Source: a virus
Direction: 5' to 3' (one strand)
DNA: 64,000 nt
IMG/VR virus record: IMGVR_UViG_3300034062_007329
Coordinates: 14,787 to 78,786 of that record
Shown: in pieces, positions 4,510-59,460 of the stretch
Layout: each line of letters begins with the position of its first letter
Position numbering within the stretch: the first letter of the stretch is position 1
Translations under genes and position numbers: made by a program
The notes under the pieces: generated by a model
Databases searched by the model: none
What the model was told of the DNA's origin: nothing
What the model saw: the letters and a program-made list of their open reading frames with translations, nothing else

Positions 4510-4920
4510 ATGAAAATTTTAAAAGAAGAGTTGACAAAAATAATCGTAGAATCAATTCAAGAAGCGCTTATTGTAGAACAGATTGGCGACGAAACCGCCG
4601 TATTAGAAGACGGAACACCAGTTTGCGAAGGATGTTTGTATGAGGATTTAACATGTGGCTGCCCAGATAAGCTGGAAGAAGCAAAATATCAGGGCAGAAC
4701 TGTTCCATTAGGTAAGCCAATGCGTGGTGACGTTAAAAAGTTTAAAGTCTATGTTCGTGATCCATCGACTGGTAATGTTAAAAAAGTCAATTTTGGTGAT
4801 CCAAACATGAAGATTAAAAAAAGCAATCCAAAACGCCGCAAAAGCTTCCGCGCCCGTCATAATTGTGACAACCCAGGTCCAAGAACAAAGGCGCGCTATT
4901 GGTCATGCCGTAAGTGGTAA
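4510..4920 (+). CDS. Conserved phage protein (NFGDPNM..RRKSFRARHNC..ARYWSC..W domain) with MKI.KEEL N-terminus
   Basis: Domain recurrent in large phages; ATG at 4510 follows the previous stop. Confidence 0.7.
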   Translation: MKILKEELTKIIVESIQEALIVEQIGDETAVLEDGTPVCEGCLYEDLTCGCPDKLEEAKYQGRTVPLGKPMRGDVKKFKVYVRDPSTGNVKKVNFGDPNMKIKKSNPKRRKSFRARHNCDNPGPRTKARYWSCRKW

Positions 4921-8015: not shown

Positions 8016-8528
8016 ATGATTAAGATCAGGATTGCTAATCAAAAATATTGCACAAAATTGTCTGTGTTTGATTTCGACGGAACTTTATTTAAAAGCCCAG
8101 ACAAACCAGAAGGCTACAAAGGTAACTGGTGGATTGAAGCTAAGTCCTTGAATCCGCCGGCAGTTCCTAAAAAACCTGGTGATCAATTCTGGAATTTAGA
8201 TGTCGTTGATGCCGCAATAAATGAATTAGCTAATCCTAAGAATTACGTGATATTAATGACTGGTCGTGTTGACCAGTTTTTTGAAGAACGTATAAATGAA
8301 TTAGTAAAGCAGAAGGGCTTGAACTTTAAACACGTATGGCTAAACCAATTTGGTAGAAGCACTGGTGAGTTTAAAGTAGAAAAGATACGCGAACTCTTGA
8401 AAAATAATCCTTCAATTAAAGAAATTGAAATGTGGGAAGACGAACAGGACAAGATCGAACTATATACTGAAGAATTTGGTAAGCAATATAAATTTAATAT
8501 AAATAAAATAAAAGGCAGGGAAAAATAA
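8016..8528 (+). CDS. HAD-superfamily phosphatase (Swiss-army-knife RNA-repair-like HAD)
   Basis: VFDFDGTLFKSP motif I, LMTGR motif II, FK motif III, MWEDE motif IV. Confidence 0.8.
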   Translation: MIKIRIANQKYCTKLSVFDFDGTLFKSPDKPEGYKGNWWIEAKSLNPPAVPKKPGDQFWNLDVVDAAINELANPKNYVILMTGRVDQFFEERINELVKQKGLNFKHVWLNQFGRSTGEFKVEKIRELLKNNPSIKEIEMWEDEQDKIELYTEEFGKQYKFNINKIKGREK

Positions 8529-9249: not shown

Positions 9250-9948
9250 ATGAAAATAATTTATGATCATACGCATGGTTTTGGTAAAATGCGTGATCAA
9301 GCGTATATATACGCCCCAACAGGAGCCTTAGTTGAAGAAAAAGAGCATAAAGAAGCGCTGGAAACTGGTTGGTGTCCTTTATTAAATAATCTCTGGTTTC
9401 AAACAAGATCTACAAGAATAGATATAAAAAAGTATATACCAAATAAAAAGCTTTTAAAAAAAGCAAAACACATAAAACCATTTTATGGTGTATCACTTGA
9501 TAATACAAAGAAAGCAATTTTTTTTGAGATATTCCAAAAATATATTAAATACAAAAAATTTAAAAGTCAAGATTACTCACTCGACGATATAATCAATACA
9601 TCGAATGGCTACGTTTATTATGCATATGCAAATAAAATAATTGGTTTTTGTTTTTTCAAGATCTTAGCAAATAATATGTTTGCGGTTGAATTTGCTTGGG
9701 ATTATGAAGATCCGAAGCTTTCTCTTGGAAAGTTAAACATACATTTTCTTGCTTACTTTGCTAAAATGAAAAAGTATGATTGTGTATACCTTTCTTCGGG
9801 ATATGAAAGCTGCTCTATATACAAATCAGACTATGAAGGTTTCCAGTGGTGGACGGGAATGAAATGGTCAGAAGATGTTGAACACTTCAAGCGCCTGTGT
9901 TATAGTGATGATAAGGTGAAGATAGAGTTTGATTGGGAGAATATATGA
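9250..9948 (+). CDS. Aminoacyl-tRNA-protein transferase-like protein (ATE1/Bpt family)
   Basis: L..GW and RSTR N-terminal motifs; WDYEDPKLSLG, YL..GYE..S.YK..Y.GFQWW resemble the ATE C-terminal domain. Confidence 0.7.
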   Translation: MKIIYDHTHGFGKMRDQAYIYAPTGALVEEKEHKEALETGWCPLLNNLWFQTRSTRIDIKKYIPNKKLLKKAKHIKPFYGVSLDNTKKAIFFEIFQKYIKYKKFKSQDYSLDDIINTSNGYVYYAYANKIIGFCFFKILANNMFAVEFAWDYEDPKLSLGKLNIHFLAYFAKMKKYDCVYLSSGYESCSIYKSDYEGFQWWTGMKWSEDVEHFKRLCYSDDKVKIEFDWENI

Positions 9949-24176: not shown

Positions 24177-24448
24177 TTGACAAGCCCTTCGCTCCGTGAT
24201 AAGATGTCTTTAACGCTGGTGATCTGGTGTGAGCGAAACACAGAAGTCCAGCAAAAAAAGTGAAACGGGGCGCTTGACAACGGCTCGGAGTCGTGGTAGA
24301 CTGTTCTTCAAGGTGGCGCTGAGTGCGAGGCGCACCGACGAACGAAAGAAAAAAAGAGTGCTTGACAAGCCTGCCCGCGTGTGGTAGACTGAGCGGGTAA
24401 GGTTGAGAGGCGGTGGTTGTTGTTAGAAACCCCGCGTGTTCTTTAACA
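24177..24448 (+). promoter_or_regulatory. Three tandem sigma70 promoters (24177, 24274, 24362) followed by a boxA-like element TGTTCTTTAACA (24437-24448)
   Basis: Consensus -35/-10 pairs; boxA differs by 1 nt from rrn TGCTCTTTAACA; lies upstream of the tRNA cluster. Confidence 0.75.
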
Positions 24449-25024: not shown

Positions 25025-25477
25025 ATGAAAACAAAAGAAGAAATAGAAGCAGCAGTAAGAGATAGTTTATCATACGCTCAAACGCTTTCTAAGTTAGATT
25101 TGAAGCCTATGGGTGGCAACTATCGAATCCTGAAACGCAAGATTGCAGAGTATCAAATAGATACAAAGCATTTTACTGGCAAGGGTCATTTAAAGAATAA
25201 AACGCACGACTGGTCTAAAAAGATTCCTCTTGTTGATATATTAAAAGAGGGAACAATCTATCAAAGTTTTAAGTTAAAAAATAGGTTGTTAAAAGAAAAG
25301 ATCATTGAAAACAAATGTAGTGAATGTGGTCTTGGTGATGAATGGTTTGGCAAGAAAATTAACCATCATTTAGATCACATAAACGGTGTCAACACTGATA
25401 ATAGGTTAGAGAATCTAAGATTGCTCTGCCCTAATTGTCATAGTCAAACTGATACTTATACTGGTAAGAATAAATAG
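25025..25477 (+). mobile_element. HNH homing endonuclease in the tRNA cluster
   Basis: CSEC..LDHING..TDNRLENLRLLCPNCHS. Confidence 0.92.
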
Positions 25478-25483
25478 TTTAGT

Positions 25484-25559
25484 TGGCGAGTAGCACAATG
25501 GCAGTCGCAGCGAGCTGTTAACTCGCAGGTTGCAGGTTCAAGTCCTGCCTCGCCAGCCA
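25484..25559 (+). tRNA. tRNA-Asn(GUU)
   Basis: GCGAG-CTGTTAA-CTCGC, T-arm, CCA. Confidence 0.95.
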
Positions 25560-27862: not shown

Positions 27863-27937
27863 TGCAAACTGGTATAGATTAACGGAAAAGCGTTGCGGCA
27901 GCAAAGATATGGGTTCAAATCCCATTGCCAGTTTGCA
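27863..27937 (+). ncRNA. tRNA-like remnant: long closing stem and intact T-arm, no anticodon arm or CCA
   Basis: TGCAAACTGG/CCAGTTTGCA; ATGGG-TTCAAAT-CCCAT. Confidence 0.5.
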
Positions 27938-27945
27938 TTTTAATT

Positions 27946-28024
27946 TTATGCGGTAGCAGGTTCGATTCCTGCCTGTCGCCCGCTAATATGGGAGGCGGAG
28001 AGCAGAATGGTTACTTTCGCATAA
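27946..28024 (+). ncRNA. Circularly permuted tRNA-mimic RNA (YrlA/Y-RNA-like), copy 1
   Basis: Order: closing stem, T-arm GCAGG-TTCGATT-CCTGC, capped acceptor-like stem, D-loop-like AATGGTT, closing stem. Confidence 0.65.
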
Positions 28025-28033
28025 TCCTTTCGT

Positions 28034-28109
28034 GTGTCCTTGTTGTATTTAGTTTGCATACCAGACTGTGACTCTGGCGGAATTGGTGCGAATCCAATAG
28101 GACACCCCA
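28034..28109 (+). tRNA. tRNA-His(GUG), atypical
   Basis: CCAGA-CTGTGAC-TCTGG; acceptor GTGTCCT/AGGACAC; C73; CCA. Confidence 0.85.
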
Positions 28110-28145
28110 ATTTGCTCCTTTCCCCTATAGCATCCTATTTACTTT

Positions 28146-28376
28146 ATGGAGGTAATAGCGATGGCTAAAACAAATCAAAAGGGAAAGGAGAGAGCAACAA
28201 AGAAAGATTCAGGCAACAAAGCATTTATAATTAGCATGATTGTATTTGCTGTTCTTGTTTCTGGGTGTGTCTCGTACTTATTATGGGATAGGAGCAATTC
28301 ACACCAATATGGTTGCATGGTATTAGGCGTTGACCAAGTATCTGGATTGGTTGGATTGGAATGTTACAAGAAATAA
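28146..28376 (+). CDS. Small membrane protein
   Basis: One hydrophobic helix. Confidence 0.6.
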   Translation: MEVIAMAKTNQKGKERATKKDSGNKAFIISMIVFAVLVSGCVSYLLWDRSNSHQYGCMVLGVDQVSGLVGLECYKK

Positions 28377-28377
28377 C

Positions 28378-28557
28378 ATGAAACTACCATATCCGCACGA
28401 TGAAACGTATCATAAAGAATTCATGGAGTATGATGATTTCTATGCTGCGTATTATTGCAAAAAATGTGATTTCTGGTTAGAAGATAAGTGCGAAGATCCC
28501 CTTTGCCTATTCTGCAAACAAAGACCAGAGAAGCCATCAAAAGTATTTTATAGTTGA
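28378..28557 (+). CDS. Cys-rich Zn-binding protein (paralog of 30838-31002)
   Basis: C..CD.WLE.KCED..C.FC..RP.KPS. Confidence 0.7.
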   Translation: MKLPYPHDETYHKEFMEYDDFYAAYYCKKCDFWLEDKCEDPLCLFCKQRPEKPSKVFYS

Positions 28558-28581
28558 AAACAATTTTAGTTTGAGATATAA

Positions 28582-29184
28582 ATGAAAAAAGATTTTACTA
28601 TTAAAGCGATAGCAAAAGAAGAAGCAAAGTCTATTTTAGAAAAATATCATTATCTATCTAAGATATCTCGCGGCTTTAAAAGCGGGTATAATTATGGATT
28701 ATACCACAAACAAACACTTTCTGGAGTTTCTATCTTTACTGGTCTACCAGTTCCAGAAGTCGCTAAAGGTTGCTTTGGTTTAGAGAGAAATGAACAGGAT
28801 GGGTTATTCGAATTATCCCGTCTGTGCCTCATACCAGAAGTTCAGCATAGTGAACATAACTTGGCTGGTTGGTTTTCTTCAAGAGCGATTAAGCAATTAC
28901 GGAAAGATGTAAATGTTCGTGCGATCCTGTCATATGCCGATAATGATTTCCATAGCGGAATTGTTTATGCTGCAACAAACTGGAAATACTATGGGTTAAC
29001 AGATCCAAAGAAAGATTTTTGGTTCAAGCAAGAGGATGGCACATACAAAAAGCATAACAGAGGAAAAATTAGTGGTTGCGAAGGCGAATGGAGAGATCGC
29101 AGCAGAAAGCATCGCTTTTTAAAAGTATTTGATCCATCTCTAAATGTTCTTTGGCAAGAACAAGAGTGGAAAAATAAAAGTTAG
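28582..29184 (+). CDS. Mom-like (GNAT-fold) DNA adenine modification protein
   Basis: YHYL, ELSRL, N.A.WF.SR.IK.L, ILSYAD..HSG.VY.ATNW.Y.G. Confidence 0.8.
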   Translation: MKKDFTIKAIAKEEAKSILEKYHYLSKISRGFKSGYNYGLYHKQTLSGVSIFTGLPVPEVAKGCFGLERNEQDGLFELSRLCLIPEVQHSEHNLAGWFSSRAIKQLRKDVNVRAILSYADNDFHSGIVYAATNWKYYGLTDPKKDFWFKQEDGTYKKHNRGKISGCEGEWRDRSRKHRFLKVFDPSLNVLWQEQEWKNKS

Positions 29185-29387
29185 TGTTTGGATAGGTGAA
29201 TATCAAAGAGAGGTGTTCCCCGTTGCAGATGAACCCCTTTCCGCTGCAAGACCAACGGATAAAATATAAATCGCAACTAAGTATGCAATCCGCTAAGAGA
29301 GGTTGCCCCAAAAAGGTAATGGCTGTGGATTGGAAACCCATTGCGGGTTCTTTACCTACCCGCCTTCGCATTATCTTCCAAACACTA
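29182..29387 (+). ncRNA. Unassigned structured RNA of about 205 nt upstream of tRNA-Ile
   Basis: 11-bp closing stem TAGTGTTTGGA/TCCAAACACTA, internal hairpins and possible pseudoknots. Confidence 0.55.
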
Positions 29388-29399
29388 TTTATGTATTAT

Positions 29400-29476
29400 G
29401 CGATAATAGCTCAGTTGGTTAGAGCATTCGCTTGATAAGCGAAAGGTCGTTGGTTCAAGTCCATCTTATCGCACCA
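29400..29476 (+). tRNA. tRNA-Ile(GAU)
   Basis: TTCGC-TTGATAA-GCGAA, CCA. Confidence 0.95.
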
Positions 29477-29485
29477 ATTTAGAAT

Positions 29486-29563
29486 CGGGGTATCGCCTAA
29501 CCTGGCATGGCACCAGTTTTGGGAACTGGCAAAATATTGGTTCAAATCCAATTACCCCGACCA
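29486..29563 (+). tRNA. tRNA-Pro(UGG)
   Basis: CCAGT-TTTGGGA-ACTGG, CCA. Confidence 0.95.
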
Positions 29564-29620
29564 ATTTTTTTTCTCTTATTCAGCTATATAACTATTTATA
29601 TACATTACAGGAGAAATCGT

Positions 29621-29887
29621 ATGAAAATTACCAAAGAGTATTTAAAAGAATTGATCAAAGAAGAACTCAGCGAGTCTGGGGAACCTTTTTCCAAGAGACA
29701 CAAACAGCAAGCCAGCAGAGTCTTAAAAAGCTTTTTACAAAAAAAAAGCAAAGCTCTAAGCCCACAAGTTGAAAATAAAGTAATAGAAATATTAGCCGAC
29801 AAAATTAATCAAAGCGAATATAGCGGTAGCGGTGGTACGCTTAGTGATTCCCATATAGCAATGGCTATATTAGATGTTGTTTTGTAG
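29621..29887 (+). CDS. Hypothetical protein with MKITKEYLKELIKEE motif
   Basis: AGGAG RBS; ACTATTTA at 29591. Confidence 0.75.
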   Translation: MKITKEYLKELIKEELSESGEPFSKRHKQQASRVLKSFLQKKSKALSPQVENKVIEILADKINQSEYSGSGGTLSDSHIAMAILDVVL

Positions 29888-30083
29888 TTATTTTAGAACA
29901 TACTTGTAGGTGTAAAGCCACAGATGATCCTTTCGTCTGTGGCATTTTATATCACGGTGTTATTCAAATGCGGTTTCCAGCCGCCCGCAACTTATTTCCC
30001 CGCAACCAACAATTAAACTCTTGACACGCTGCCCCTGCCGTGGTAGTATGGTATTAACGCTGATGGGCAGCGAGAGGAAATGA

Positions 30084-31002
30084 ATGTCACTTTATAGTGA
30101 ATGTGCGGATATCTACGCAGAATATGTTGAACCCTATTACTATGATGGGGACTATGATCTTGAGTTTATGCCTAAAATGAGGCAGCGTGCTGCAAAGGCA
30201 GTTGTTGAGTATGTGAAAAAGAATTATCCAGATACTCCCACAACCTATTGCAAGGCTTGTGACGAGATCCATCCATACACCAAGATTGTTTATGATTCTG
30301 GTGTTGCTGCCGATGTTTGTTTGGTTTGTGGTTATGGTGTAGTTCCGATTGAGGGGAAGTAAAAATGGAAAAGCGTTGCTCAAATTGTAAAAGCTATCTT
30401 ACTGATCTTGAAATTGAAGCTTGCGGTGGAATGTGTGCTGAATGTGAATTCTATTCAGTAGTTTTAATGGATGATGATAGTTTGGAGGAAGCGTAATGTC
30501 TAATATCTATATGATCCGCCGTAAGACCGATGGTAAGTATATTTGCGGAAGCGGTCGTTATCCTTGGTTTTCCGATGATATCGGTAGAACCTTCTATTCG
30601 CTCCATTCGGTTAAGATTTTCTTAACAAACTATCTCAAGTGTAATAAGATCAAGACTTGGGAGAATGGACGTTACAAGTTTAATGCTGGTGAGTTCTTTA
30701 CTCCAAGCAACATTCTTCTTAATTGTGAAGTTGTAGCGGTTGAGGTTAAGCCAAGTTCTATCCAAGACATTTTTGAGTTCTCCGCTCAAACTGAAATGGA
30801 GCGAAAGACAAAGAAGAAGAAGGCAAAGAAGTAAGCAATGTTCAAAGTAACTTGTAAGTTATATGAATTTCATAAAACTGACTATAGTTACGAATATGAT
30901 GCCTATTTCTGTTGCGATTGCGATGATTGGTTAGAAAAGAAATGTGAAGATCATCGCTGTAACTTTTGTCCAAAGCGCCCAGATAAGCCATCGCAAGTTT
31001 AG
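30084..31002 (+). CDS. Early operon of small ORFs (30084-30362, a short Zn-ribbon ORF, 30496-30834, 30838-31002)
   Basis: Promoter at 30021; coupled ORFs with CxxC motifs. Confidence 0.6.
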
Positions 31003-31093
31003 GAAACGTGGGTGAGAGGCTTAAACCAGCGGTTTGCTAAACCGCCGTAGGTGTAACAATCTACCGAAGGTTCAAATCCTTCCGTTTCCGCCA
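31002..31093 (+). tRNA. tRNA-Ser(GCU)
   Basis: GCGGT-TTGCTAA-ACCGC, long variable arm, CCA. Confidence 0.95.
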
Positions 31094-31173
31094 TTACAGC
31101 CAGTTGCCAATCAATTTTGGTAACTGGCTATTTTTTTGTTGACTCCTGCCCTCGCTTGTGATAGGATAAAAGA

Positions 31174-31979
31174 ATGGAACCCAAGGTTGGACAGATTTGG
31201 CGATATGCTACACCTTTCGATAATGGTGAAACCGTATATGAATATATTTTCATAACTGGGATCAAATCGAACGGACACGCAGTTCATTATTTTTCCTTTG
31301 ATGATCCAGAAAGACCCGTATGGGATTACGCACAATCGTTTGTGGAAAACAAAAGTTATGAATTTGTGAGTGGCTAATGAAACCCCAAATCAAGATCGGG
31401 CAAGTTTGGAAGTTCAAAGAAAGTTATGGCAGCGGTACAGATTATTACTTTGTTGTCAATCGTATCACGGAACAAGTGATCGGGTTTCAGTATTTGCACA
31501 AGGATTCAACTGGTTGGTGTTTTGAACGGGATTTTCATCGACAATATGAATTGGTGAGTGATGTATGAGAACTCCAATTCCTGGTGAATTGTGGAAAGAC
31601 GAACACAATAAAACGTTACTTATAAAAAGCGTAAGAGTAGATCATCCAGTAAGTCACGATTGGATTTATTATTATATCGTTGATTATGATATAGATAGTA
31701 ATTGTTCGCTTGCATCTTTCGTTAAATATTCAACGCTGGTGAGTGGATATTCTGATGGATAAAGTAAAAGTTGGACAAGTTTGGAAGATACTTGAAAGTA
31801 AGTTAGACCTCAAGGGAGGGAACCCAGAAGATTACCTAATCGTTATCACAAAGATTTATAAGAAAGGAATGGTTGCAGACTTCTTTTATCTTGATGGTTA
31901 TGATTCTGGTCGTGATGGTGAGGACGATATAAACATTCCTTGGCTACTCAAGAATGGACAATTGGAGAGTGATGTATGA
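31174..31979 (+). CDS. Four tandem SH3-like paralogs (K/P-(V/I/P)-G(Q/E)-(I/V/L)-W ... LVS(G/DV))
   Basis: 31174, 31377, 31565 and 31753 share N- and C-terminal motifs. Confidence 0.7.
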
Positions 31980-32322
31980 GTAAAGATTATGATAAGGGCT
32001 TCCAAGATGCAGTAAAAAAGATTAGCGATCTATTGCTTTCCGAATTTAAAGTATACAAAAAGGAAATAAAGGGATACGTTAAGGATACTGATTATCTTTC
32101 TGCTTACGAAAACAAGGTTCGCATGGAAGATGCTGATTTCTATTTCCACGAATTCCGTAAGATGGTTGTAGATAAAGCTGATAGCGATGAGCATAAAGCT
32201 TGCAATTGTTTAATCTGCAAAGGGGAATAAAATGGGTCGCTGCTGCACATAAAGGACGATGCTGTTTCGCAAGCAGCAAATAAGCTCTTGACTTCAAAGC
32301 CCACCTATGTTAGACTGTTCCT

Positions 32323-34880
32323 ATGGTCGAGCATAAGGTGGGCGAACTTGTTTTGATGGTTCTTAGGACTTATGAGAGAAGATACCAATACCTTGGTATC
32401 ATCAAAAAGGTTGATGACGGAATAATGATTGGTACAAAAGCCTATTTTGTCGAATGGAACGATGGACAAGACAATTGGTATTCCTCGGAAAGTATTGAGG
32501 AAATGAAAAGTGACCTCTGGACTTACTATGAATCACAAAATCGGTGATCTTATTTGGTCACAATCCGCACACGAAATTGCAATCATCGTTGGATACTTTC
32601 CAAATGGTTTGCACGGATCGGACAAGTTTAAATATTCCGTTTGCCACAGCTCTACTGGTAATCGGTTCTTCTACACGGAAGAAATGATTGAAACGGGCAA
32701 AAAGCAATTAGAGAAATTCTATGAACGCGAAGCATCAAATCGGTGATCCTGTATACAGCAATTCGTATGGTCTTGGATATATTTCTGATATTGAACCAAC
32801 CACTCTTCATGTGAAGCATCACGTTAAGTGGATGGACGATAATATGTTTCTTGCAGATGATAGATGGTATGAAGCAAAAGGCATTGACACTCTCAAGATG
32901 TTCCTGCGAATGAAATTGCGCGGTGAAGATATATGAAACATAAAGTTGGTGACCTTGTTTATTACAAAGCAAACAAGAAAGTGTTTGCAGACAAAAACCA
33001 ACCTTCAATTGGCATTATAGCCAAGTGCTTTCCAAGGAAAGATACTTATTGGATTGAATGGTTGAATGACAGCGATGTGCTTTATCAGAAATTAGTAATG
33101 ACAGAGTTTTCGGGTCAGGCGATTGGTTGGTTCAAAAGAGATTTGCAAGAGGTATTAGGGAATGACGGAACACAAAATCGGTGATCTTGTTTACCAGCTT
33201 GACAACAAAAGCATTGGCATCATCACAAAGATCACAGATGATGATAAGGAGAGTATGCCTCGTTACCGAATGATTTATATTATTGAATATGCAAATGGCA
33301 AAACTGGTCGTCATTCCGCTGCCGTCATTGATGGTATGAAAAGCAATCTACAAAACCACTTAAGGAAAGAAAATGGATCACAAAGTCGGTGATTTGATAT
33401 ATGACGATATTAGCGAAGCCATTGGAGTGATAAAGCGAATCCGTGAGGATGAAGAAAATGGAATACTCTATGATATCGAATGGAGTAGCGGAGAGGCATC
33501 AACTGGTATTCACGGACTTGCATCGGAATCAATTGACTATCTCAAGGATTTACTAAATGCAGAACTCAAAAGAGCACAACGTCGGTGATCTTGTTCTTGC
33601 TGGTGGTTTAGGGATCATAACAAAGATAGATAGGGATTTCCGTGCTGACTGGTATCACGTTGAATGGTGTTGCGAAGGAAATGAAGCCATCAGAAGCGCG
33701 TTTCAGGATAACGAGATCGCGTATTTTAAAGAGGCGTTGAATCGTGAATCACAAAGTCGGTGATCCTGTTTATTGCAATGGTAGTGTAGGAGCAATCAAG
33801 GCAACAAGCGAAGGGGTATATGGTCCCCAAGTAGTATTGCCAGAAACGGAGCGTAGTTATAGGATTGAATGGTTTGACGATAAACCATTTGCAAGTGGCT
33901 ACATCCGAAAGGTCTGGTTTAACTTTTATGAAGTTGCTTCCTTCAAAGAGCAATTGCGAGAGGCGTTAAATGAGCAATCATCAAGTAGGTGATTTGGTCT
34001 ACGATCCAGCATACCAAGATTTTGGCGTTATCACAAAGATATGGACAGAGGATGAATTAACAAAACTTGGAAAAGAACCTCCATATTACACAATCGAAGT
34101 GCGATTCCCAGATAGCAAGGTTATGCCAGTAGATAGATACAAGCCAAATACGATTGACAAGTTCAAACGGACATTGAAGGATATGTATGATGAATCATAA
34201 CGTTGGCGATCTTGTATTGCATAAGGCTCACACATTGAGGAATACTCTTGGATATATCAAAAAGATTAAAGCATATCGAGAGTACGAAGTCTATTGGTTC
34301 AATCCTTACTTGAAGCATCAAGATGACATATCGTTAGAGTCTGATGCGTCAATAAATTCGCTCAAAAGAAACCTACAGGAATATATGGATGAGCATCACT
34401 CATAAGGTAGGCGATCTGGTGATGGGCGTCAATGTGGACAACGAAACAATTTTGGGAGTAATAAAAAAGATTTCCATTGCAGACACTAATATTGTTGTTG
34501 ACAACAACGTGGAACGCTATTATGAAGGTGAACCCCATTACCAGATTGAATGGGCGAATGATCTCCACTCTAATGTTTGGTATAAGGAAAGCAATGTTAA
34601 TGCTTTCAAGATGACGTTTGATGAATATATGAGGAGAAAGAAAAAATAAATGGATGAGTATAAGATAGGCGATCTACTCATGATGCATCGGCTTTCACTA
34701 AAGCCAGTAATTGGAATCGTCAAGGATTGTAAAGTGGGGGATATTAGCAATAGTAAATATTACTTTGTAGAATGGATATCCGAAGATGCGGGGATTACAA
34801 CAAACGTTTGGTTTGCAGAATGTGATATACAATACTATAGGCAAGCGTATGTGCAGTATGCAGCGGATAATAGCCTTTAG
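32323..34880 (+). CDS. Tandem array of 12 paralogous 68-86 aa SH3/KOW-like ORFs
   Basis: All begin (H/Y)(K/Q/N)(V/I)G(D/E)(L/P), followed by G.I..I and mostly Y..EW; overlapping junctions. Confidence 0.85.
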
Positions 34881-35090
34881 ACACTTAAGGGGGATTAATA
34901 GGGGAGTGGGTATGTTGTATAGTGCGGTATGGAGTATAATAGGATGGACGCTGCCAACCCTGCGGAAAGTGGTATTAGCGCCACTATACCACAATATATA
35001 GTGGTGTGTAAAGCGTATCGCCTAAACCCCCGTAAATACAGGCAAAAAAACGTGCTTGACACGGTGCCTGATCCGTGGTAGGATGGTACT

Positions 35091-35429
35091 ATGATGCGAG
35101 AGTGCAGCGAATGTGGTGGTGAGTTTGATCCGCGAAGCAAGGCAAAGCGGATTGCTGGTGGTTTGTCAACCCATTGCCCCGATTGTTCGGAGGAAACGGA
35201 GGTACGGTATTTCGGTACCTCCGCAGGAGAGGGTAAGCAGGCAAGCGTGCAGGTATTGAAGTTTGCTTCCCAGAAGGATAGGGATGCATATCAGCGATAT
35301 TGGAAGGCATCATCAGGATTGAATACGGGCAAGCAATGCCAGATGGCATTCCGCGCTAATGAGATTGGCGTGCATTTCGAGACAAGGGCTACATTTACAG
35401 GCAATACTAACCATAAGGGGAAGGCATAA
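35091..35429 (+). CDS. Zn-ribbon hypothetical protein
   Basis: CSEC..HCPDC; leaderless after promoter 35056. Confidence 0.7.
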   Translation: MMRECSECGGEFDPRSKAKRIAGGLSTHCPDCSEETEVRYFGTSAGEGKQASVQVLKFASQKDRDAYQRYWKASSGLNTGKQCQMAFRANEIGVHFETRATFTGNTNHKGKA

Positions 35430-35787
35430 TGCAGTATATTATTGAACGTATGGATGCGGGTGGTAGGTGGACTAAGCATAGTTCGGCAAGCTCAGAAAGC
35501 GCAGCCAATGTTTCAGCCCGTAATCTAAAGGAAGTATACCCCAATTGGTCTATCCGAGTGGTGGATAGCGATGGGGATGTATGTAATATTCTGTAATCTA
35601 TACACTCCCAGGGTGGGGGGGGTCTGCGGTTTAAGATAAAAAGGGTACATATAAATTAACCAGCCGCCTGATAAGGCGGAATAGGGATTATACCCATATA
35701 GTAATACCCCAATTCCCCCCTGCGGGGGCTGGGCTTGACAAGGTTAGGGGGTACTGGTATAGTACTACCATAGAGGGGAGGTGTCAT

Positions 35788-35877
35788 ATGCCACATCCAC
35801 ACAAGAATCGACCACGCAAAGGTCGGCGTAAGATTGGTTCAAAAAAGCGTCGTAGCCGTAACATGAGAAAGAAGTAA
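35788..35877 (+). CDS. 29-aa highly basic peptide MPHPHKNRPRKGRRKIGSKKRRSRNMRKK
   Basis: Own promoter (35734), strong GGAGG RBS, tandem stops. Confidence 0.65.
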   Translation: MPHPHKNRPRKGRRKIGSKKRRSRNMRKK

Positions 35878-36616
35878 TAGGGCAAATGGGAGCGAATCTT
35901 GTGCTTGACACGGGGTTCGCTCCCTGCTATACTGTTTATATGGTGCGATGGAGCAGCGAACCATTAGATTGCCGCGTTGGTGATATTGTGGTTGAGAAGG
36001 TTAATGGGCAGAATCCAACTTATTGGGTTATATCAAAAGTAACAAAGAATGATAACCCAATACGATTTGGGCATACATACAAAGAAGTGTATGATATGTT
36101 TAATCTGGAGAATGATATGGATACAATAGAAAATGTTATGTTCCGCAATACGGAAGCAGTAACATATGAGATCATCCGTGGGTAATACATTCCGCGTCGG
36201 AGATCTTGTCGAATTTCAAAGCAAAGAGTCGCATTCGTTATTCCAGAAAAAAGTGTGGAATAACAAAATCGGCGTCATTTCTGCCATTAGAACAAAAGCC
36301 GAAATCGCATATATCAAATGGTCCGATTTGGACCTAAATGATGTATGGATTGCGTATGAAGATTTGAAGCTTCTAAACCGAGAGTAACAATCGGCAAGCG
36401 AAACGAAATAGTTCTACAAATAACATATGATATCTCGGGTAAACAGAACCATGTTATCACAAACCCGCCGCCGCTGTCAAGCATAAAAAGCGCCCCCTAA
36501 CCCCCTGTAACTACAGGCGAAAATAAAAGTTGACGGGGAACCCGTTTTCGGGTAGACTGTACTTGTTCGGTGGTCGTGAAGGCGTGTCGCCCGAAGCCAC
36601 TGATAGGGTGCAACCG

Positions 36617-37273
36617 ATGGCTAATGCTTATTACATGAAGTGGACTAAGGGTAACGAGAAGTTGCAAAAGGACAATGGTGGTGTTTATAACATCGTTGGT
36701 TTCGGCATCCCTGCCGATTATGATATGGGCAATGGGATGAATACGTGTCCTGGGGCGCTTGCTTGCCGTGCGGTTTGCTATGCAAAGCAGGGTCGTTATG
36801 CTATGCCCAACGTCATGAATGCGCGTATGCACAACCTTGAAATGTCGTTGCAGCCTGATTTCGTGGAAAACGTTGTTCGTGATCTTGACCGTATGCGAAA
36901 GGTTAACACGGTTCGTATTCACGATTCGGGTGATTTCTATTCGCAGGAGTATTATCGCAAGTGGTGCGATATCGCTCGGATGCTTCCCGATATCACGTTT
37001 TATGCATACACTAAGACCGTGAATATGGACCTGTTCGGGAATAAGCCCGATAACCTCCAGATCACGCAATCGCTTGGTGGCAAGCACGACGAGAGCGTGA
37101 ATATGGATATGCCCCATTCGCGCATCTTTGCAACCCATGAGGATCGCGTTCGTGCTGGATACGTCGACGGTAACGTGAATGACGTTCCTGCGATTGAGGG
37201 TTTGGTGCAAATCGGGTTGGTGTATCACGGGCAGCGCAAGTTGACGGAATCGCAGAAGCGTTATTTTGCTTAA
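36617..37273 (+). CDS. Gp88-like protein (radical-SAM-like Cys cluster)
   Basis: TCPGA.AC..VCYA..GRY, VRIHDSGDFYS..Y...W, FYAYTK. Confidence 0.8.
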   Translation: MANAYYMKWTKGNEKLQKDNGGVYNIVGFGIPADYDMGNGMNTCPGALACRAVCYAKQGRYAMPNVMNARMHNLEMSLQPDFVENVVRDLDRMRKVNTVRIHDSGDFYSQEYYRKWCDIARMLPDITFYAYTKTVNMDLFGNKPDNLQITQSLGGKHDESVNMDMPHSRIFATHEDRVRAGYVDGNVNDVPAIEGLVQIGLVYHGQRKLTESQKRYFA

Positions 37274-37283
37274 GAGGTAAACA

Positions 37284-37463
37284 ATGGCAAGGACAAAGAA
37301 AGATCGGAAGGCAAAGCATATTGACCCCAATAGCATTAAGACCCGTGATTGGTGTATGGTGCTAATCATCCAAGGGGTTACTAAGGCAGGGGTTATTCCT
37401 GATAGGCGCAAGGCACGGAATAAGTATCGGTGCCGTAATAGTAGGAATGGGGAGTGGGACTAA
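37284..37463 (+). CDS. Small basic protein (59 aa, not in ORF track)
   Basis: GAGG RBS; KAGV..DRRK..NK..CR. Confidence 0.6.
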   Translation: MARTKKDRKAKHIDPNSIKTRDWCMVLIIQGVTKAGVIPDRRKARNKYRCRNSRNGEWD

Positions 37464-37685
37464 CCCGTATTCCAGTAGGGTGGGGGGGTCTCAAATAATG
37501 TATTACAGGTAATGTATATCAGCCGCCCTTTAGGGCAATACCATTAGGATAATACCCCCCTAATAGGTATATGCCCAAATGCGGGCGGCTGACACTCTCG
37601 GGATAGAGCAAAGAAAAAAGTTGACGGCATCCCCTGTCCGTGGTAGACTGTTCTTAATGCTGGATGGTCCAGCGAGAGGTAAGCG

Positions 37686-37928
37686 ATGACGGATTATAAC
37701 GGTTGGGCAAACTACGAAACGTGGAATGTTGCTCTTTGGATTCAGAACGACGAGGGGCTTTATGCGCTTGCCAAGGAGATTGCCGAATCCAAGTATTCGC
37801 GTCCTTATCAGGGATTCGTGGATAACATGAAGGATTGCGATATTCATGCAACGCCTGATGGTGTTTCATACCAGGATCGTTTGCTTAATATCAAGGAACT
37901 GGATTCTATGATTAGGGAGCTTGCATAA
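37686..37928 (+). CDS. Conserved phage early protein (YNGW.NYETW.V.LW..ND)
   Basis: Motif recurrent in phage early regions. Confidence 0.75.
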   Translation: MTDYNGWANYETWNVALWIQNDEGLYALAKEIAESKYSRPYQGFVDNMKDCDIHATPDGVSYQDRLLNIKELDSMIRELA

Positions 37929-38381
37929 ATGATGATTCCAGGAAATAGTGTTTTTCATTGCCATTTGCCAGAACTTGGAAAGGGTGTGATTACTGCAATC
38001 CTTATGGACACCCAATCAGGAAAACCTATTGCCAAAGTTATGTGGGAATCACCAAAGCATGGTGTTGCCTCGCTTCACACATTCGACCATTTGAAGCGTA
38101 TCGATGAATGCACGGATGCCTATACCGCATTTCAGATGGTATTGCCGTTCATATGATGTTTGACGTTTGCCCTATTCCTTATTCTAAGGATAGAGGCGGC
38201 TGGCGAAGGTAATCAGTTCAGTTTACCATGCCAGCCCCCGCGTGTCAAGCGAAATCGACACGCCGATCCCCCAGGGCGATGCCCGCTAACCCCTTGAAAA
38301 GACTTGCGAAAAAAGAAGTTGCAAGCGGTTGGGGGTTGTGGTAGACTGTTCTTCGTTCGGTGGATGGTGTCTCGCCCCGAA

Positions 38382-38464
38382 AGAGTGTAGCGGTAGCGGG
38401 CTCGATCCCCGCACGCCAACCCTTGCGGGTATGGTGGAGACGGAACGGTTCCGCGCTACACTCT
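38382..38464 (+). ncRNA. Circularly permuted tRNA-mimic RNA (YrlA/Y-RNA-like), copy 2
   Basis: 11-bp closing stem AGAGTGTAGCG/CGCTACACTCT, T-arm GCGGG-CTCGATC-CCCGC, capped acceptor-like stem, D-like AACGGTT; own promoter at 38319. Confidence 0.65.
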
Positions 38465-38676
38465 AAGCGGGGAGCAAAGAAAAAAGTTGACGGGGCAAGC
38501 GAGGCATGATAGACTGTCTCTTGTAAGGTTGGCGATGCGGTACTGACGCCAGCGAGGGAACGAAAGAAAAAAGTTGACGCCCGATCGTGGGCATGGTAAG
38601 ATAGGCGGGTAAGGTTGAGAGAGGCAATATCGCCTCCCAACAACGCACCAAAGGTGCGGGAAGGTAAGCGTAACAC

Positions 38677-53920: not shown

Positions 53921-54485
53921 GCAAGAATTAAAACAAATATTTCCAAAAGCTCCAATAGATAAATTAAAATTGTATGCGCCAATTTTATTAAATACATGTA
54001 GCCAAATGGGATTTGATACTCCAAAACGAATCGCTGCCCTATTAGGACAAATTGCTGTCGAGAGTGGAGAATTAAAATACGATAAAGAGCTACCAAGTAA
54101 ATGGAATAAAAAAAACCCAAACGATCCAAATGAACCAGTTGGGACGCTTTATGAAGGACGTAAAAATTTAGGAAATATTAAAACTGGTGATGGACCAAGA
54201 TATATTGGTAGAGGTTTATTGCAACTAACTGGACGCGCCAATTATTTTGATTATGGTAAAAAAATTGCCGTGGATTTAGTGAACAATCCAGACCTCGCCT
54301 GCGATCCAACGATATCAGTTAAAATTGCTTGTCAATATTTTATAGATCGTAAATTAATTGAAGCTGCTGATAAATGGGATCTTGCAACAATAACAAAACG
54401 AGTAAATGGAAGCGCTATGTTACATCACGACAAAAGAGTAGCCTATTCAGAAAAAGCTTTGAAAGTTTTAGAAGGAAGCGTTTAA
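53907..54485 (+). CDS. GH19 family endolysin
   Basis: AALLGQ..VES, YEGR.NLGN...GDG.RY.GRG.LQLTGRANY, ITKRVNG. Confidence 0.93.
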   Translation: MKLTEQELKQIFPKAPIDKLKLYAPILLNTCSQMGFDTPKRIAALLGQIAVESGELKYDKELPSKWNKKNPNDPNEPVGTLYEGRKNLGNIKTGDGPRYIGRGLLQLTGRANYFDYGKKIAVDLVNNPDLACDPTISVKIACQYFIDRKLIEAADKWDLATITKRVNGSAMLHHDKRVAYSEKALKVLEGSV

Positions 54486-54555
54486 AAAACTTAACTCCAC
54501 CAAATAATGCCACAGACCGCTTGACAACAAGGGGCGTCTGTGGCATACTTGTTTC

Positions 54556-57638: not shown

Positions 57639-58196
57639 ATGAACACAGACACCCGCAACATTTCAGACAAATACAAGCATGATCGTTTGACCAAGTGGAC
57701 AACAGAATTAATTAAAAAAGATCTTCAGCAAAAAGCTTTTCCGTATGCAGTTCTTATGGAAAACTTTGCTGGAGATTTTAATATTGGAACCGTGGTAAGA
57801 AACGCAAATGCGTTCAATGCCCGTTGTGTCTACTATTTAGGTAACAAGCACTATGATCGTAGAGGTACGGTGGGAACCCATCACTATACAGATGTAATTC
57901 GTTTAAAGGCGCGAGAAGAACTTATCAAACTCAAGGAGGAATACACGCTTGTTGGCGTTGAGAATAGCGTTAGCTCTGCTATCTCTCTGGATAAGTTTGA
58001 ATGGGATAGCAATACTCTACTTATCATTGGTGAAGAAGGCGTCGGAATCACATCAGAAACGCTTGAACTTTGTGATCGTTTTGTTTATATTCCTCAATTC
58101 GGTAGCGTCAGAAGTCTTAATGCTGGCGTGGCTTCTGGGATTGTTATGAATGATTTAGTGACAAAGATCGGAGCTAAAAGTGTTATCGCCACTTGA
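57639..58196 (+). CDS. SpoU/TrmH-family RNA methyltransferase
   Basis: N.G...R.A.AF, IIGEEG.GI, IPQ.G..RSLNAGVA. Confidence 0.9.
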   Translation: MNTDTRNISDKYKHDRLTKWTTELIKKDLQQKAFPYAVLMENFAGDFNIGTVVRNANAFNARCVYYLGNKHYDRRGTVGTHHYTDVIRLKAREELIKLKEEYTLVGVENSVSSAISLDKFEWDSNTLLIIGEEGVGITSETLELCDRFVYIPQFGSVRSLNAGVASGIVMNDLVTKIGAKSVIAT

Positions 58197-59460
58197 TGAT
58201 CGGTATTTTGAAAAAGTTCGTGAACTCCACGATTATTTTAGTGAAGACGCGCAACTAAAGTTTAAAACTGAAATTGAGATTGATTATTTTGTTGCTCTTT
58301 GCGAAGAACTTGACTTAGAGCTTTCAGAAGAAGATCATCATTGGATTACAGATCTTTATAAAGATATTCAACCAATACATATTAAAGTTATTGAAGAAAA
58401 AACAAAACACGATATTAAAGCTATTGAGTATTATTTACGTGAAAGATTTAAAAATTATGGTATTCCTCACGATCACATGATTCATTTTGGTTTGACATCA
58501 CAAGATATTAACAGCCTTGCAACAAGTATCGCTCTTGATCGCTTTAATCAAAGTGAAATGTCATACTATATGAATGAAATTATTAATGCTCTCCATTATT
58601 TCAGCGAAAGAAACAAATGCGTATTTCCTGCGCGTACTCATGGGCAATTAGCAGTTCCAACTCTTTTTGAAAAAGAAATGCAAGTGTTTATCTCCAGAAT
58701 TGACGCCATCTGGAATGAGACTACAGATTTTCATTTTAAAGCTAAATTTGGTGGAGCAGTTGGAAATTTAAGCGCTCACTATATTGCATACCCAAATCAT
58801 GACTGGAAAGATTTCATGGATAGATTCCTTAGAAGATATGATATTGATCCAGAGCCTTATACAACACAAGTTGCAAATAATAAAAGCATCAGCGAATATT
58901 TTGATCGTATTCGCATGACAAACAATATTTTGATTGATCTATGCCGTGATATCTGGATGTATAATTCTTATGGATACTTTAATCAAAAAGTTACAACGGA
59001 TGAAGTTGGTTCTTCAACGATGCCACAAAAAGTTAATCCAATCCGTTTTGAGAATGCAGAAGGCAACCTTGAATTAGCAAATTGTTTGTTATCTTTTATG
59101 TCTGACAAGTTACAAATCTCAAGAATGCAACGCGACCTTTCTGATACAACCATCGTAAGGAACATCGGCGTTGCCATCGGGCATTCAGTAGTAGCCTATA
59201 AATCGCTGCTAACGGGTCTACAAGCGCTTTCAATTAATCGGACGGCAGTTGATAGGGATCTTTCTAACAGAGGGCTTCTGGCAGAGGCTTATCAAATTAT
59301 CTTGAAGAAAGAAAATATTAAAGATGGGTACGAACTAATTAAAACGATGGAACGTGATGAGAAAAGCATTGATGATTTAAAAATCTCAGACGAGTTGAAA
59401 CAAAAACTAAAAGATGTTACAATATATCATTACGTCACCCACATAAGGGAAACCAATTAA
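58180..59460 (+). CDS. purB: Adenylosuccinate lyase
   Basis: LSPLD.RY, TKHDIKAIEY, HFGLTSQDIN, ARTHGQ, GSSTMPQKVNP..FENAEGN. Confidence 0.96.
   Translation: MLSPLDDRYFEKVRELHDYFSEDAQLKFKTEIEIDYFVALCEELDLELSEEDHHWITDLYKDIQPIHIKVIEEKTKHDIKAIEYYLRERFKNYGIPHDHMIHFGLTSQDINSLATSIALDRFNQSEMSYYMNEIINALHYFSERNKCVFPARTHGQLAVPTLFEKEMQVFISRIDAIWNETTDFHFKAKFGGAVGNLSAHYIAYPNHDWKDFMDRFLRRYDIDPEPYTTQVANNKSISEYFDRIRMTNNILIDLCRDIWMYNSYGYFNQKVTTDEVGSSTMPQKVNPIRFENAEGNLELANCLLSFMSDKLQISRMQRDLSDTTIVRNIGVAIGHSVVAYKSLLTGLQALSINRTAVDRDLSNRGLLAEAYQIILKKENIKDGYELIKTMERDEKSIDDLKISDELKQKLKDVTIYHYVTHIRETN

What the first reader, a model, noticed from the sequence alone, without database searches (positions are those of the whole stretch)
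27946..38464. Two circularly permuted, anticodon-less tRNA-mimic RNAs (YrlA/Y-RNA-like) sharing one architecture
Seen: 27946-28024 and 38382-38464 both read closing stem-GCG-GTA-T-arm (GCAGG-TTCGATT-CCTGC vs GCGGG-CTCGATC-CCCGC, a compensatory change), then an acceptor-like stem closed by a loop, GG(C/T)G-GAG-A, a D-loop-like A.GGTT, and the closing stem. The T-arm therefore precedes the D-arm, the acceptor end is capped, and the anticodon arm is replaced by the 5'/3' stem. One copy sits inside the tRNA operon; the other has its own strong early promoter (38319). Established: bacterial YrlA Y RNAs have this permuted tRNA-like module and normally accompany Ro60/Rsr. No Ro60 gene is in this window. 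Inference: these are phage tRNA-elbow mimics that could titrate host Rsr/PNPase, tRNA-targeting toxins or nucleases, or T-box-like sensors.
Basis: partly seen in the sequence, partly recalled or inferred. Interest (0 to 1): 0.85.

Follow-up and report, generated by a model that had tools for sequence, protein, structure and literature searches.

The report
Back-to-front tRNA look-alike RNAs in phage
Two ~80-base stretches of this uncultured large phage are real copies of one rare small-RNA design, a tRNA rebuilt in rearranged order with no anticodon and a sealed acceptor end. It resembles the tRNA-like part of bacterial YrlA Y RNAs but lacks their Ro60 docking part, and no Ro60 gene was found.

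Summary
Elements A (27946-28024) and B (38382-38464) share one layout: closing helix, GGUA, canonical T arm, 8-9-bp acceptor-like helix closed by a loop, purine linker, D arm with an AAYGGUU loop, closing helix. A covariance model built from A and a homologue in another phage finds B at 31.7 bits (E 4e-7); the window's real tRNAs score 16.7 bits or less.

Wide scans found few relatives: an A-type copy in a 162-kb phage, one in a 4.7-kb contig, and a more distant version in another phage's tRNA cluster. Helices change sequence but stay paired. The element is nearly identical where its flanks are only about 72% identical. Both halves of A best match the phage's own tRNA-Asn, so it is a permuted tRNA descendant.

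It is not a YrlA family member. Rfam YrlA gives 12 bits against a cut-off of 69. The 5' Ro60 motif, the UA linker and the Levitt pyrimidine are missing. No TROVE/Ro60 gene was found in this record or in two near-complete related phages.

The closest relative lacks A and keeps only a remnant of B, so the elements are accessory. Best reading, at moderate confidence: trans-acting tRNA-elbow mimics, acting as decoy or adaptor. The partner is unknown. This scan has noted similar permuted tRNA mimics in other phages.

The parts
27946..28024 (+). Element A, whole permuted tRNA-like module (79 nt), lying between tRNA-like element C and tRNA-His
   Evidence: (109.9 bits to R1)
27946..27952 (+). A: closing helix, 5' strand (equivalent to the anticodon stem); pairs with 28018-28024
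   Evidence: 7 bp; compensatory changes against the L009/L080 copies and B
27956..27972 (+). A: T arm GCAGG-UUCGAUU-CCUGC
27973..27998 (+). A: acceptor-like helix (5 bp, G.A mismatch, 3 bp) closed by an 8-nt loop
   Evidence: the cap differs in every homologue (UUCG in L080, UUGC in B)
28002..28017 (+). A: D arm with a weak stem and the loop AAUGGUUA (tRNA-like A14, R15, G18, G19, A21 pattern)
   Evidence: aligns to the D arm of the phage tRNA-Asn
28018..28024 (+). A: closing helix, 3' strand
38319..38347 (+). Promoter-like site before B: TTGCAA, 17 nt, TAGACT, with a TG and an upstream A-tract
   Evidence: same hexamers and spacing in G003; 8 of 12 to consensus, so not listed
38375..38379 (+). 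B: outer helix CCCCG, pairing with CGGGG at 38468-38472 and extending the terminal stem across an internal loop
   Evidence: 106-nt fold
38382..38464 (+). Element B, whole permuted tRNA-like module (83 nt)
   Evidence: z -4.4; 31.7 bits, E 3.6e-7; the MFE is the tRNA-like fold
38396..38412 (+). B: T arm GCGGG-CUCGAUC-CCCGC (C in place of U54)
38414..38436 (+). B: acceptor-like helix, 9 bp with a bulged A, capped by a UUGC tetraloop
38441..38453 (+). B: D arm, CGG/CCG stem around AACGGUU
38468..38472 (+). B: outer helix, 3' strand CGGGG

Best explanation
A and B belong to a small, rare family of phage RNA modules that descend from a tRNA gene by circular permutation. The anticodon loop is opened, so the 5' and 3' ends form what was the anticodon stem. 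The acceptor end is sealed by a loop. The T arm and a D arm with the GG loop are kept.

Shown here:
- Both copies share this architecture.
- Helices are kept by compensatory change across three lineages.
- The element is conserved well above its flanks.
- A resembles the phage's own tRNA-Asn in both halves.
- The module sits in three unrelated transcript contexts: a tRNA operon, just after a promoter, and the 3' end of a two-gene unit.

Inferred:
- The modules are released as stable RNAs of about 80-110 nt. A would be freed by the enzymes that cut out the neighbouring tRNAs, B from its own promoter.
- Sequence conservation sits in the T loop, the D-loop GG and the junctions, while the acceptor cap and closing helix vary freely. 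The selected surface is therefore probably the tRNA elbow and core.
- The RNAs can be neither charged nor decoded. They most likely act in trans as tRNA look-alikes that occupy a factor reading the tRNA elbow, either as a decoy for a host tRNA-directed enzyme or defence nuclease, or as an adaptor for a phage or host RNA-repair or tRNA-modifying protein.
- This is the working principle proposed for the tRNA-like module of YrlA, but here without the Ro60 handle.
- They are accessory. The closest relative has lost both.
For: - Model R1, built from A plus the L009 copy, finds B at E 3.6e-7; tRNAs score 16.7 bits or less.
- Homologues: G001 (162 kb), L080, and a distant L010 type.
- Covariation on four sequences: 96.7% of cells paired against 42-57% when partners are slid; 4 of 7 closing-helix pairs and 1 T-stem pair changed on both sides.
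- Cross-lineage helix tables show the acceptor-like and D stems differ in sequence but stay paired, with the AAYGGUU loop conserved.
- L080 and G001 flanks are 72.5% identical in DNA and neighbouring proteins 55% and 84% identical. The element is identical outside the acceptor cap.
- Element lengths of 79, 78 and 77 nt exclude a conserved coding frame.
- Between L080 and the window only the element aligns (84.5%).
- Both halves of A best match tRNA-Asn: 28 of 32 and 16 of 18 aligned positions.
- Caps include the stable tetraloops UUCG and UUGC.
- Contexts: operon; promoter; 3' end of a unit.
- The phage has a tRNA-centred gene set: 18 tRNA or tRNA-like genes, a HAD_SAK_1 RNA-repair phosphatase domain, an AAA_33 kinase, a SpoU methylase and a PhoH-PIN protein.
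Against: - There are no expression, end-mapping, binding or probing data.
- Only five distinct sequences exist in three lineages, so the covariation statistics are thin. The shuffle control is also inflated by relatedness.
- For A-type copies the thermodynamic model prefers a rod-like alternative by 8-9 kcal/mol, and RNAalifold on the four-sequence alignment picks that rod.
- Core tertiary contacts of tRNA and YrlA are not preserved: no U8 equivalent, and a purine at position 48. B has C at position 54.
- Close relative G003 lacks A and keeps only a remnant of B. G005 (92% complete) has neither. Any function is therefore dispensable.
- No partner protein is identified.
- B has no terminator and could simply be part of a long leader.
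Confidence: 0.45

Rival explanations
1. They are true Y RNAs of the YrlA kind. They would bind a Ro60/Rsr protein, encoded by the host or in the missing ~65% of this phage genome, and tether it to an effector through the tRNA-like domain.
For: - The arm order is the same as in YrlA (PMC4201824; Rfam consensus).
- B has a long terminal stem interrupted by an internal loop, with CCCGAAAG in its 5' strand, one mismatch from GNCGAAN0-1G.
- The record is only 35% complete.
- Some jumbo phages carry TROVE proteins with a tRNA-like partner (PMC7824862).
Against: - Rfam YrlA gives 12.2 bits for A and no hit for B, against a cut-off of 69.
- No TROVE gene is found in G000, G001 (89% complete, carries an A-type copy), G002, G003, G004 or G005 (92% complete).
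- A-type copies have only a 7-8-bp closing helix, no Ro60 motif, and a closing-helix sequence that varies.
- The near-motif next to B is not kept in G003.
- The UA linker and Levitt pyrimidine of YrlA are absent (10.1101/312249 compared).
Confidence: 0.12
2. They are cis-acting structural modules. A compact tRNA-shaped fold would mark processing sites or block exonucleases, stabilising the transcript in which it sits, with no trans partner.
For: - In G001 and L080 the module sits 3 nt after a stop codon, at the 3' end of a two-gene unit.
- A lies in a polycistronic tRNA operon.
- B lies in a leader with no terminator.
Against: - An ordinary hairpin would do for stability. The strict conservation of T-loop and D-loop letters across lineages is not explained.
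- A capped acceptor helix lacks the free end that RNase P and RNase Z normally use.
- The three contexts (5', internal, 3') have no common cis logic.
Confidence: 0.15
3. They are non-functional relics of tRNA-gene rearrangement, for example the 3' half of one tandem tRNA copy joined to the 5' half of the next. They would be slowly decaying.
For: - A matches tRNA-Asn in both halves, in exactly the 'dimeric tRNA' topology that PMC4201824 warns about.
- A-type copies have a weak D stem and a competing rod fold.
- Both elements are lost in G003.
- tRNA clusters of these phages gain and lose genes freely.
Against: - The element is far better conserved than its flanks and than the neighbouring proteins.
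- Compensatory changes occur in all helices.
- Stable tetraloop caps have been acquired.
- The same module occurs in unrelated genomic contexts of diverged phages that share 65-77% DNA identity in common genes.
Confidence: 0.15
4. They are precursors of a working adaptor: a permuted tRNA gene matured by circularisation, or the tRNA-like half of a two-piece (permuted) tmRNA.
For: - The gene order (T arm, acceptor 3' strand, intervening loop, acceptor 5' strand, D region) is that of permuted tRNA and two-piece tmRNA genes (my own knowledge).
- Relatives G003, G004 and G005 carry tmRNA-type 3' ends, with a full tmRNA call in G005 only, whereas the window has no tmRNA.
Against: - The flanks contain no anticodon-loop letters.
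- There is no CCA and no G3.U70 pair. The acceptor helix is paired through positions -1 to -3 and capped by tetraloops.
- No tag reading frame follows. A is followed 9 nt later by tRNA-His, and B by promoters.
- ARAGORN, which also searches for permuted tmRNA, finds none in the window.
Confidence: 0.03

Closest known systems
YrlA (Y RNA-like A; Rfam RF02553; Salmonella, M. smegmatis, 22 Ro60-encoding phages; PMC4201824; structure in 10.1101/312249)
   Same: - Same permuted order: terminal helix in place of the anticodon arm, short variable-loop linker, T arm, loop-capped acceptor-like stem of variable length, D arm.
- T-loop plus D-loop GG, as needed for a tRNA elbow.
- No free CCA end.
- Probable tRNA ancestry.
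   Different: - No Ro60 gene within 4 kb or anywhere in the records held.
- No GNCGAAN0-1G motif in A-type copies.
- A terminal helix of only 7-11 bp.
- An AGA/GAGA linker instead of the conserved UA.
- A purine instead of the pyrimidine that makes the Levitt pair.
- A different D-arm sequence.
- Far below the Rfam cut-off (12 bits against 69).
Permuted tRNA genes (red alga Cyanidioschyzon merolae and some archaea; from my own knowledge, not checked in a paper here)
   Same: The 3' half of a tRNA is encoded upstream of the 5' half, and the acceptor strands are joined by an intervening loop. The origin is a normal tRNA.
   Different: Those mature into decoding tRNAs through circularisation by the splicing machinery, and they keep the anticodon loop. 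Here no anticodon letters exist and the cap is a stable tetraloop in two members.
tRNA-like domain of tmRNA, especially two-piece (permuted) tmRNA
   Same: A T arm, acceptor helix and D-loop analogue with a helix in place of the anticodon arm. The permuted gene order is the same.
   Different: There is no CCA, no G3.U70 alanine identity pair, no tag reading frame and no pseudoknots. ARAGORN is negative.
Other stable non-tRNA RNAs in phage or viral tRNA clusters (T4 species 1 and 2 RNAs; gammaherpesvirus 68 tRNA-like RNAs; from my own knowledge)
   Same: Small non-decoding RNAs that are co-transcribed and processed with viral tRNAs.
   Different: Those keep the normal tRNA arm order and free acceptor ends. 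They are unrelated in sequence.
Permuted tRNA mimics noted earlier in this scan in other phages (unchecked AI notes; for those beside Ro60-like genes and for those beside DUF7873)
   Same: The same general design, often in phage tRNA clusters.
   Different: Those are reported next to a Ro60-like or DUF7873 gene, or as parts of RNAs of about 380 nt. Here the modules are single, about 80 nt, and no TROVE gene is found. The ORFs next to A and B that were scanned gave no DUF7873 match. No look-alike sequence was found in the scan index.

Membership tests
YrlA / bacterial Y RNA (RF02553) | Scores at or above the Rfam gathering threshold (69 bits) | tested here: not met
   A scores 12.2 bits (E 7.4) over the T arm only. 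B has no hit at E up to 10. The genome's own tRNAs reach 21 bits.
YrlA / bacterial Y RNA (RF02553) | Encoded within about 4 kb of a Ro60/Rsr (TROVE) gene on the same strand (PMC4201824) | tested here: not met
   No TROVE match at E up to 1 in G000 (78.8 kb), G001 (89% complete), G002, G003, G004 or G005 (92% complete). G000 is only 35% complete, so a distant gene cannot be excluded.
YrlA / bacterial Y RNA (RF02553) | GNCGAAN0-1G motif near the 5' end (Ro60 contact) | tested here: not met
   Absent from A, L009 and L080. B has CCCGAAAG in its 5' flank, one mismatch, and G003 does not keep it.
YrlA / bacterial Y RNA (RF02553) | tRNA-like domain in the order T stem-loop, acceptor-like stem-loop, D stem-loop | tested here: met
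YrlA / bacterial Y RNA (RF02553) | Conserved core: a UA dinucleotide between the acceptor-like stem and the D stem-loop, and a pyrimidine at the last variable-loop position making the Levitt pair (10.1101/312249) | tested here: not met
   The linker is AGA (A type), GAGA (B) or AA (L010 type). The last variable-loop letter is A in GGUA.
YrlA / bacterial Y RNA (RF02553) | Binding by Ro60 and tRNA-type modifications (TruB, DusA) | not testable with these tools
   Needs biochemistry.
Canonical tRNA | Cloverleaf in the normal order with an anticodon arm and free acceptor ends | tested here: not met
   Not called by ARAGORN or by Rfam tRNA. The arm order is permuted and there is no anticodon loop.
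tmRNA (standard or two-piece) | G3.U70 pair, CCA end, resume codon with a tag reading frame, pseudoknots | tested here: not met
   ARAGORN and Rfam are negative in the window. The 3:70 pair is G-C. tRNA-His or promoters follow directly.
Permuted tRNA gene that matures into a decoding tRNA | Anticodon-loop halves at the two ends of the gene and a motif for circularisation | tested here: not met
   The flanks UUUUAAU / AAUCCUUU (A) and CCCCGAA / AAGCGGGG (B) carry no anticodon-loop halves.

The most novel reading that the evidence does not exclude
A Ro60-independent class of phage tRNA-elbow decoys. These would be small, mobile, anticodon-less permuted tRNAs that phages pass around and use to soak up or misdirect a host factor that reads the tRNA elbow. 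Examples are a tRNA-cleaving defence nuclease or its sensor. Alternatively they could scaffold the phage's own RNA-repair or tRNA-modifying enzymes.
Probability: 0.2. Interest if true: 0.8.

Novelty: new variant of a known kind. Interest (0 to 1): 0.55.

Why it matters
YrlA-type tRNA mimics have so far been defined by their link to Ro60. Here the same permuted tRNA body appears without the Ro60 handle or gene. It is conserved above its surroundings and moves between unrelated contexts in diverged phages. This suggests the tRNA-like body has a use of its own.

If the partner is a tRNA-directed defence or repair factor, this would add a non-coding, non-decodable RNA to the known ways in which phages defend the tRNA pool. 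It also gives a clear example of how such mimics arise: by permutation of an ordinary phage tRNA gene, here one like tRNA-Asn.

Tried and rejected
- **Rfam.** The gathering search over the window gave only tRNAs. The permissive search gave only a weak YrlA hit on A's T arm and nothing for B.
- **Cultured phages.** blastn against 50,697 phage records found no match to A or B.
- **Pattern scans.** The metagenome scan gave 72 loci, the species-genome scan 63 loci, and two further viral scans were run. Apart from L009=L053, L080 and L010=L030=L042=L046, all hits were chance matches in GC-rich coding DNA, ordinary tRNAs or other sequences without the permuted layout. L011 is an orphan T arm outside ARAGORN's tRNA call followed by a gene start, perhaps a tRNA 3'-end remnant, and L071 looks like a tRNA 3' end followed by a chance motif; neither has the permuted layout.
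- **Dimeric-tRNA hits.** Hits of R1 such as L156 3323-3388 were rejected as dimeric tRNAs.
- **MAFFT alignment of all five lineages.** It put B and L010 out of register, so cross-lineage pair tables were made by script instead.
- **Candidate hidden Ro60.** The 521-aa orphan protein of G000 is nearest to uncharacterised viral proteins, with no Ro60-like hit.
- **ORFs next to A and B.** They gave no informative family except DUF7249, Mom and HNH.
- **ORFs next to the G001/L080 copies.** They have no homologue in the window.
- **Donor tRNA for the L010 type.** None is clear.
- **Scan index.** A sequence look-up found no look-alike.

Full report
**Setting.** The window is bases 14787-78786 of a 78.8-kb IMG/VR virus record. 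CheckV estimates it as 35% complete, so it is probably a fragment of a phage of about 200 kb. It has no close cultured relative: its PhoH protein is at most 40% identical to any deposited phage. All genes run on the + strand.

- A tRNA cluster of 16 ARAGORN-called tRNAs lies at 24.8-31.1 kb (a 17th, tRNA-Gly, lies at 56.2 kb), behind three tandem promoters.
- Rfam adds one more tRNA-like hit, element C, at 27868-27933.
- A GC-rich early region at 37.5-42.5 kb is full of near-identical promoters, each with an A-tract, TTGAC, 17 nt and TAGACT or TAAGAT.

- Element A is 79 nt. It has a closing helix of 7 bp, then GUA, then a textbook T arm (27956-27972). Next come an acceptor-like helix of 5 bp, a G.A mismatch and 3 bp under an 8-nt loop, then the linker AGA. 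A D arm follows whose loop AAUGGUUA has the tRNA pattern A14, R15, G18, G19, A21. The 3' strand of the closing helix ends it.
- Element B is 83 nt and has the same parts. The closing helix is 11 bp, the T arm has one compensatory pair change, the acceptor-like helix is 9 bp with a bulged A under a UUGC tetraloop, the linker is GAGA, and the D arm is CGG/CCG around AACGGUU. A further 5-bp outer helix lengthens the terminal stem.

B adopts this fold as its minimum-energy structure (z -4.4; mean pair probability 0.83). Neither element is called a tRNA.

**Beyond chance.** I built covariance model R1 from A and its homologue in another phage, without B. In 81 kb it finds B at 31.7 bits, E 3.6e-7. 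The best true tRNA of the window reaches 16.7 bits. A scan for orphan T arms finds four in the window: C, A, B and one probable chance hit inside a gene.

**Relatives.** I ran pattern scans of IMG/VR (five), the metagenome collection (one) and 185,579 species genomes (one), each filtered with R1 or by script. They yielded very few true members.

- An A-type copy lies in G001, a 162-kb phage contig that is 89% complete. L009 and L053 are the same record.
- An A-type copy lies in L080, a 4.7-kb contig.
- A more distant form, the L010 type, is identical in four contigs and sits in the 21-tRNA cluster of another phage. It has the same T arm, an 8-bp capped acceptor helix, GGGUGGAGA, and a D arm GCC/GGC around GAACGGUUCA. 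It also has an extra hairpin where the anticodon arm would be. It folds this way by minimum energy.

No bacterial genome has the pattern with a T arm. The family is therefore real but rare, and so far confined to phages.

**Evidence for selection on structure.**

- On the four sequences aligned by the model, 96.7% of cells pair, against 42-57% when partners are slid. Four of seven closing-helix pairs and one T-stem pair changed on both sides.
- Across the three lineages the acceptor-like helix and the D stem have different letters but remain paired. One example is the third acceptor pair: G-C in the A type, C-G in the L010 type and G.U in B.
- G001 and L080 are 72.5% identical over the 670 nt that align around the element. 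Their neighbouring proteins are 55% and 84% identical. The element itself is identical except in the acceptor cap and one linker base.
- Between L080 and the window nothing but the element aligns, at 84.5%.
- Lengths of 79, 78 and 77 nt rule out a conserved reading frame.

**Caveats on the fold.** For A-type copies the energy model prefers a rod-like alternative by 8-9 kcal/mol, and RNAalifold on the four-sequence alignment, which is dominated by A-type copies, picks it. B and the L010 type do not favour that rod. The double change in the T stem is explained only by the tRNA-like fold. With five distinct sequences, though, this is not settled.

**Origin.** Both halves of A best match the phage's own tRNA-Asn (25484-25559). 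The stretch from GGUA through the T arm into the acceptor 3' strand matches positions 44-74 at 28 of 32 aligned positions. The acceptor 5' strand through the D loop matches positions 1-18 at 16 of 18. A is therefore a circular permutation of an Asn-like tRNA, opened at the anticodon loop and closed at the acceptor end. This is the topology one gets from the junction of two tandem tRNA copies.

**Context and dispensability.**

- A lies between element C and tRNA-His, so the enzymes that excise its neighbours would free it. This is inference.
- B follows a promoter-like site whose hexamers and spacing are the same in relative G003. No terminator follows, only two more promoters and then a small gene.
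- In G001 and L080 the module sits 3 nt after the stop codon of a two-gene unit, before a strong hairpin and the next promoter.
- G003 is about 90% identical to the window. It keeps element C at 97% but lacks A, tRNA-His, tRNA-Met, tRNA-Lys(CUU) and a 184-aa ORF. At B's site, within the same promoter array and outer helix, it keeps only short remnants.
- G005, 92% complete, has neither element.

The elements are thus accessory modules that are gained, moved and lost, as phage tRNAs and counter-defence genes are.

**Comparison with YrlA.** The published family is defined by three things: closeness to rsr/Ro60, a 5' GNCGAAN0-1G motif, and T, acceptor-like and D stem-loops in this same order (PMC4201824). 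Its crystal structure shows a conserved UA linker and a Levitt pair made by a pyrimidine at the end of the variable loop (10.1101/312249).

Here only the arm order and the elbow letters are met.

- The Rfam model gives 12 bits against a cut-off of 69.
- No TROVE gene is found in six related records, two of them near-complete.
- The 5' motif is absent from A-type copies.
- The linker is purine-only.
- The variable-loop position is A.

I therefore describe the elements as working like the tRNA-like module of YrlA, but not as members of that family. Readings as tmRNA or as a maturing permuted tRNA fail on every defining feature.

**Most likely mechanism.** Sequence conservation is concentrated in the T loop, GGUA, GGYGGAGA and the AAYGGUU loop, which in a tRNA fold surround the elbow and core. 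The acceptor cap, twice a stable tetraloop, and the closing helix vary freely. The RNA cannot be charged or decoded. The most economical reading is a stable, trans-acting mimic of the tRNA elbow that occupies a protein or RNA reading that surface.

The phage's gene set is tRNA-centred. It has a HAD_SAK_1 RNA-repair phosphatase domain (8016-8525), an AAA_33 kinase protein (4914-6863), a SpoU-family methylase (57639-58193), a PhoH-PIN protein and RNase T. This fits a role in the contest over tRNA described for jumbo phages (PMC7824862). Which partner is involved, whether a host defence nuclease, a host Ro60, or a phage repair or modifying enzyme, is not shown.

I give the trans-acting mimic reading 0.45. 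The rivals are a true Ro60-dependent Y RNA (0.12), a cis-acting stability or processing module (0.15), a decaying relic (0.15) and an adaptor precursor (0.03).

**Novelty.** I found no paper or Rfam family describing Ro60-independent permuted tRNA mimics in phages. Earlier unchecked notes of this same scan report similar designs in other phages, mostly beside Ro60-like or DUF7873 genes. No sequence look-alike of B is in that index. I class this as a new variant of a known kind, of moderate interest.

Noticed in passing
window 27863-27938: Element C is a tRNA-like RNA just upstream of A (Rfam tRNA 45.4 bits; missed by ARAGORN). It has a normal arm order and T arm, but its anticodon arm is reduced to a 4-bp stem with a 4-nt loop. 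Its acceptor stem is extended to 12 bp by leader-trailer pairing, and it has no CCA. It is 97% conserved in G003, with two A-U to G.U changes in stems.
   Followed up: partly
window 54475-54495 compared with L157 11635-12937 (G003), L159 17715-17731 (G004) and L168 14576-14865 (G005): ARAGORN calls a tmRNA in G005 (tag ANEDVEFESYALAA), and G003 and G004 carry tmRNA-type T-arm/CCACCA 3' ends at the matching place. The window has only a 20-nt gap at the syntenic place, and no tmRNA was detected in it.
   Followed up: partly
window 4914-6863 and 8016-8525: A 650-aa protein has an N-terminal AAA_33 (polynucleotide-kinase-like) domain. A 170-aa protein matches HAD_SAK_1, the phosphatase domain of 'Swiss Army Knife' RNA-repair proteins. 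Together they may form an RNA-repair set. No ligase was identified.
   Followed up: partly
window 57639-58193 and 59460-60770: A SpoU-family RNA 2'-O-methylase and a PhoH protein with a PIN domain lie downstream of tRNA-Gly. SpoU/TrmH enzymes methylate G18 in the tRNA D loop, the GG that the mimics keep (from my own knowledge). No link was tested.
   Followed up: no
window 9250-9945: A 232-aa protein has a weak, sub-threshold match to the C-terminal domain of arginyl-tRNA-protein transferase (ATE_C, E 2e-4). G001 has a homologous stretch.
   Followed up: no
window 25025-25474 and 28582-29181: An HNH endonuclease and a Mom-family protein are embedded in the tRNA cluster. The Mom gene is absent from G003.
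   Followed up: no
window 38487-38602, 24177-24390; L156 15275-15505: Two or three near-identical promoters stand in tandem about 90 nt apart, each followed by a short leader hairpin but no gene. B sits between the first and second of such a run.
   Followed up: no
L230 about 6790-6850 (IMGVR_UViG_3300042564_002819): A mini tRNA-like element: an 8-bp acceptor-type helix and a T arm joined by a short linker, with no D or anticodon arm.
   Followed up: no
L161 1079-1095 (G005, minus strand): An orphan T arm (AUGGG-UUCAAGU-CCCAU) lies between tRNA-Trp and tRNA-Phe and resembles the T arm of element C. It may be a C-type homologue.
   Followed up: no
L155 517-1105: ARAGORN calls a permuted tmRNA that overlaps tRNA-Leu in G003. 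This is probably a false positive.
   Followed up: no
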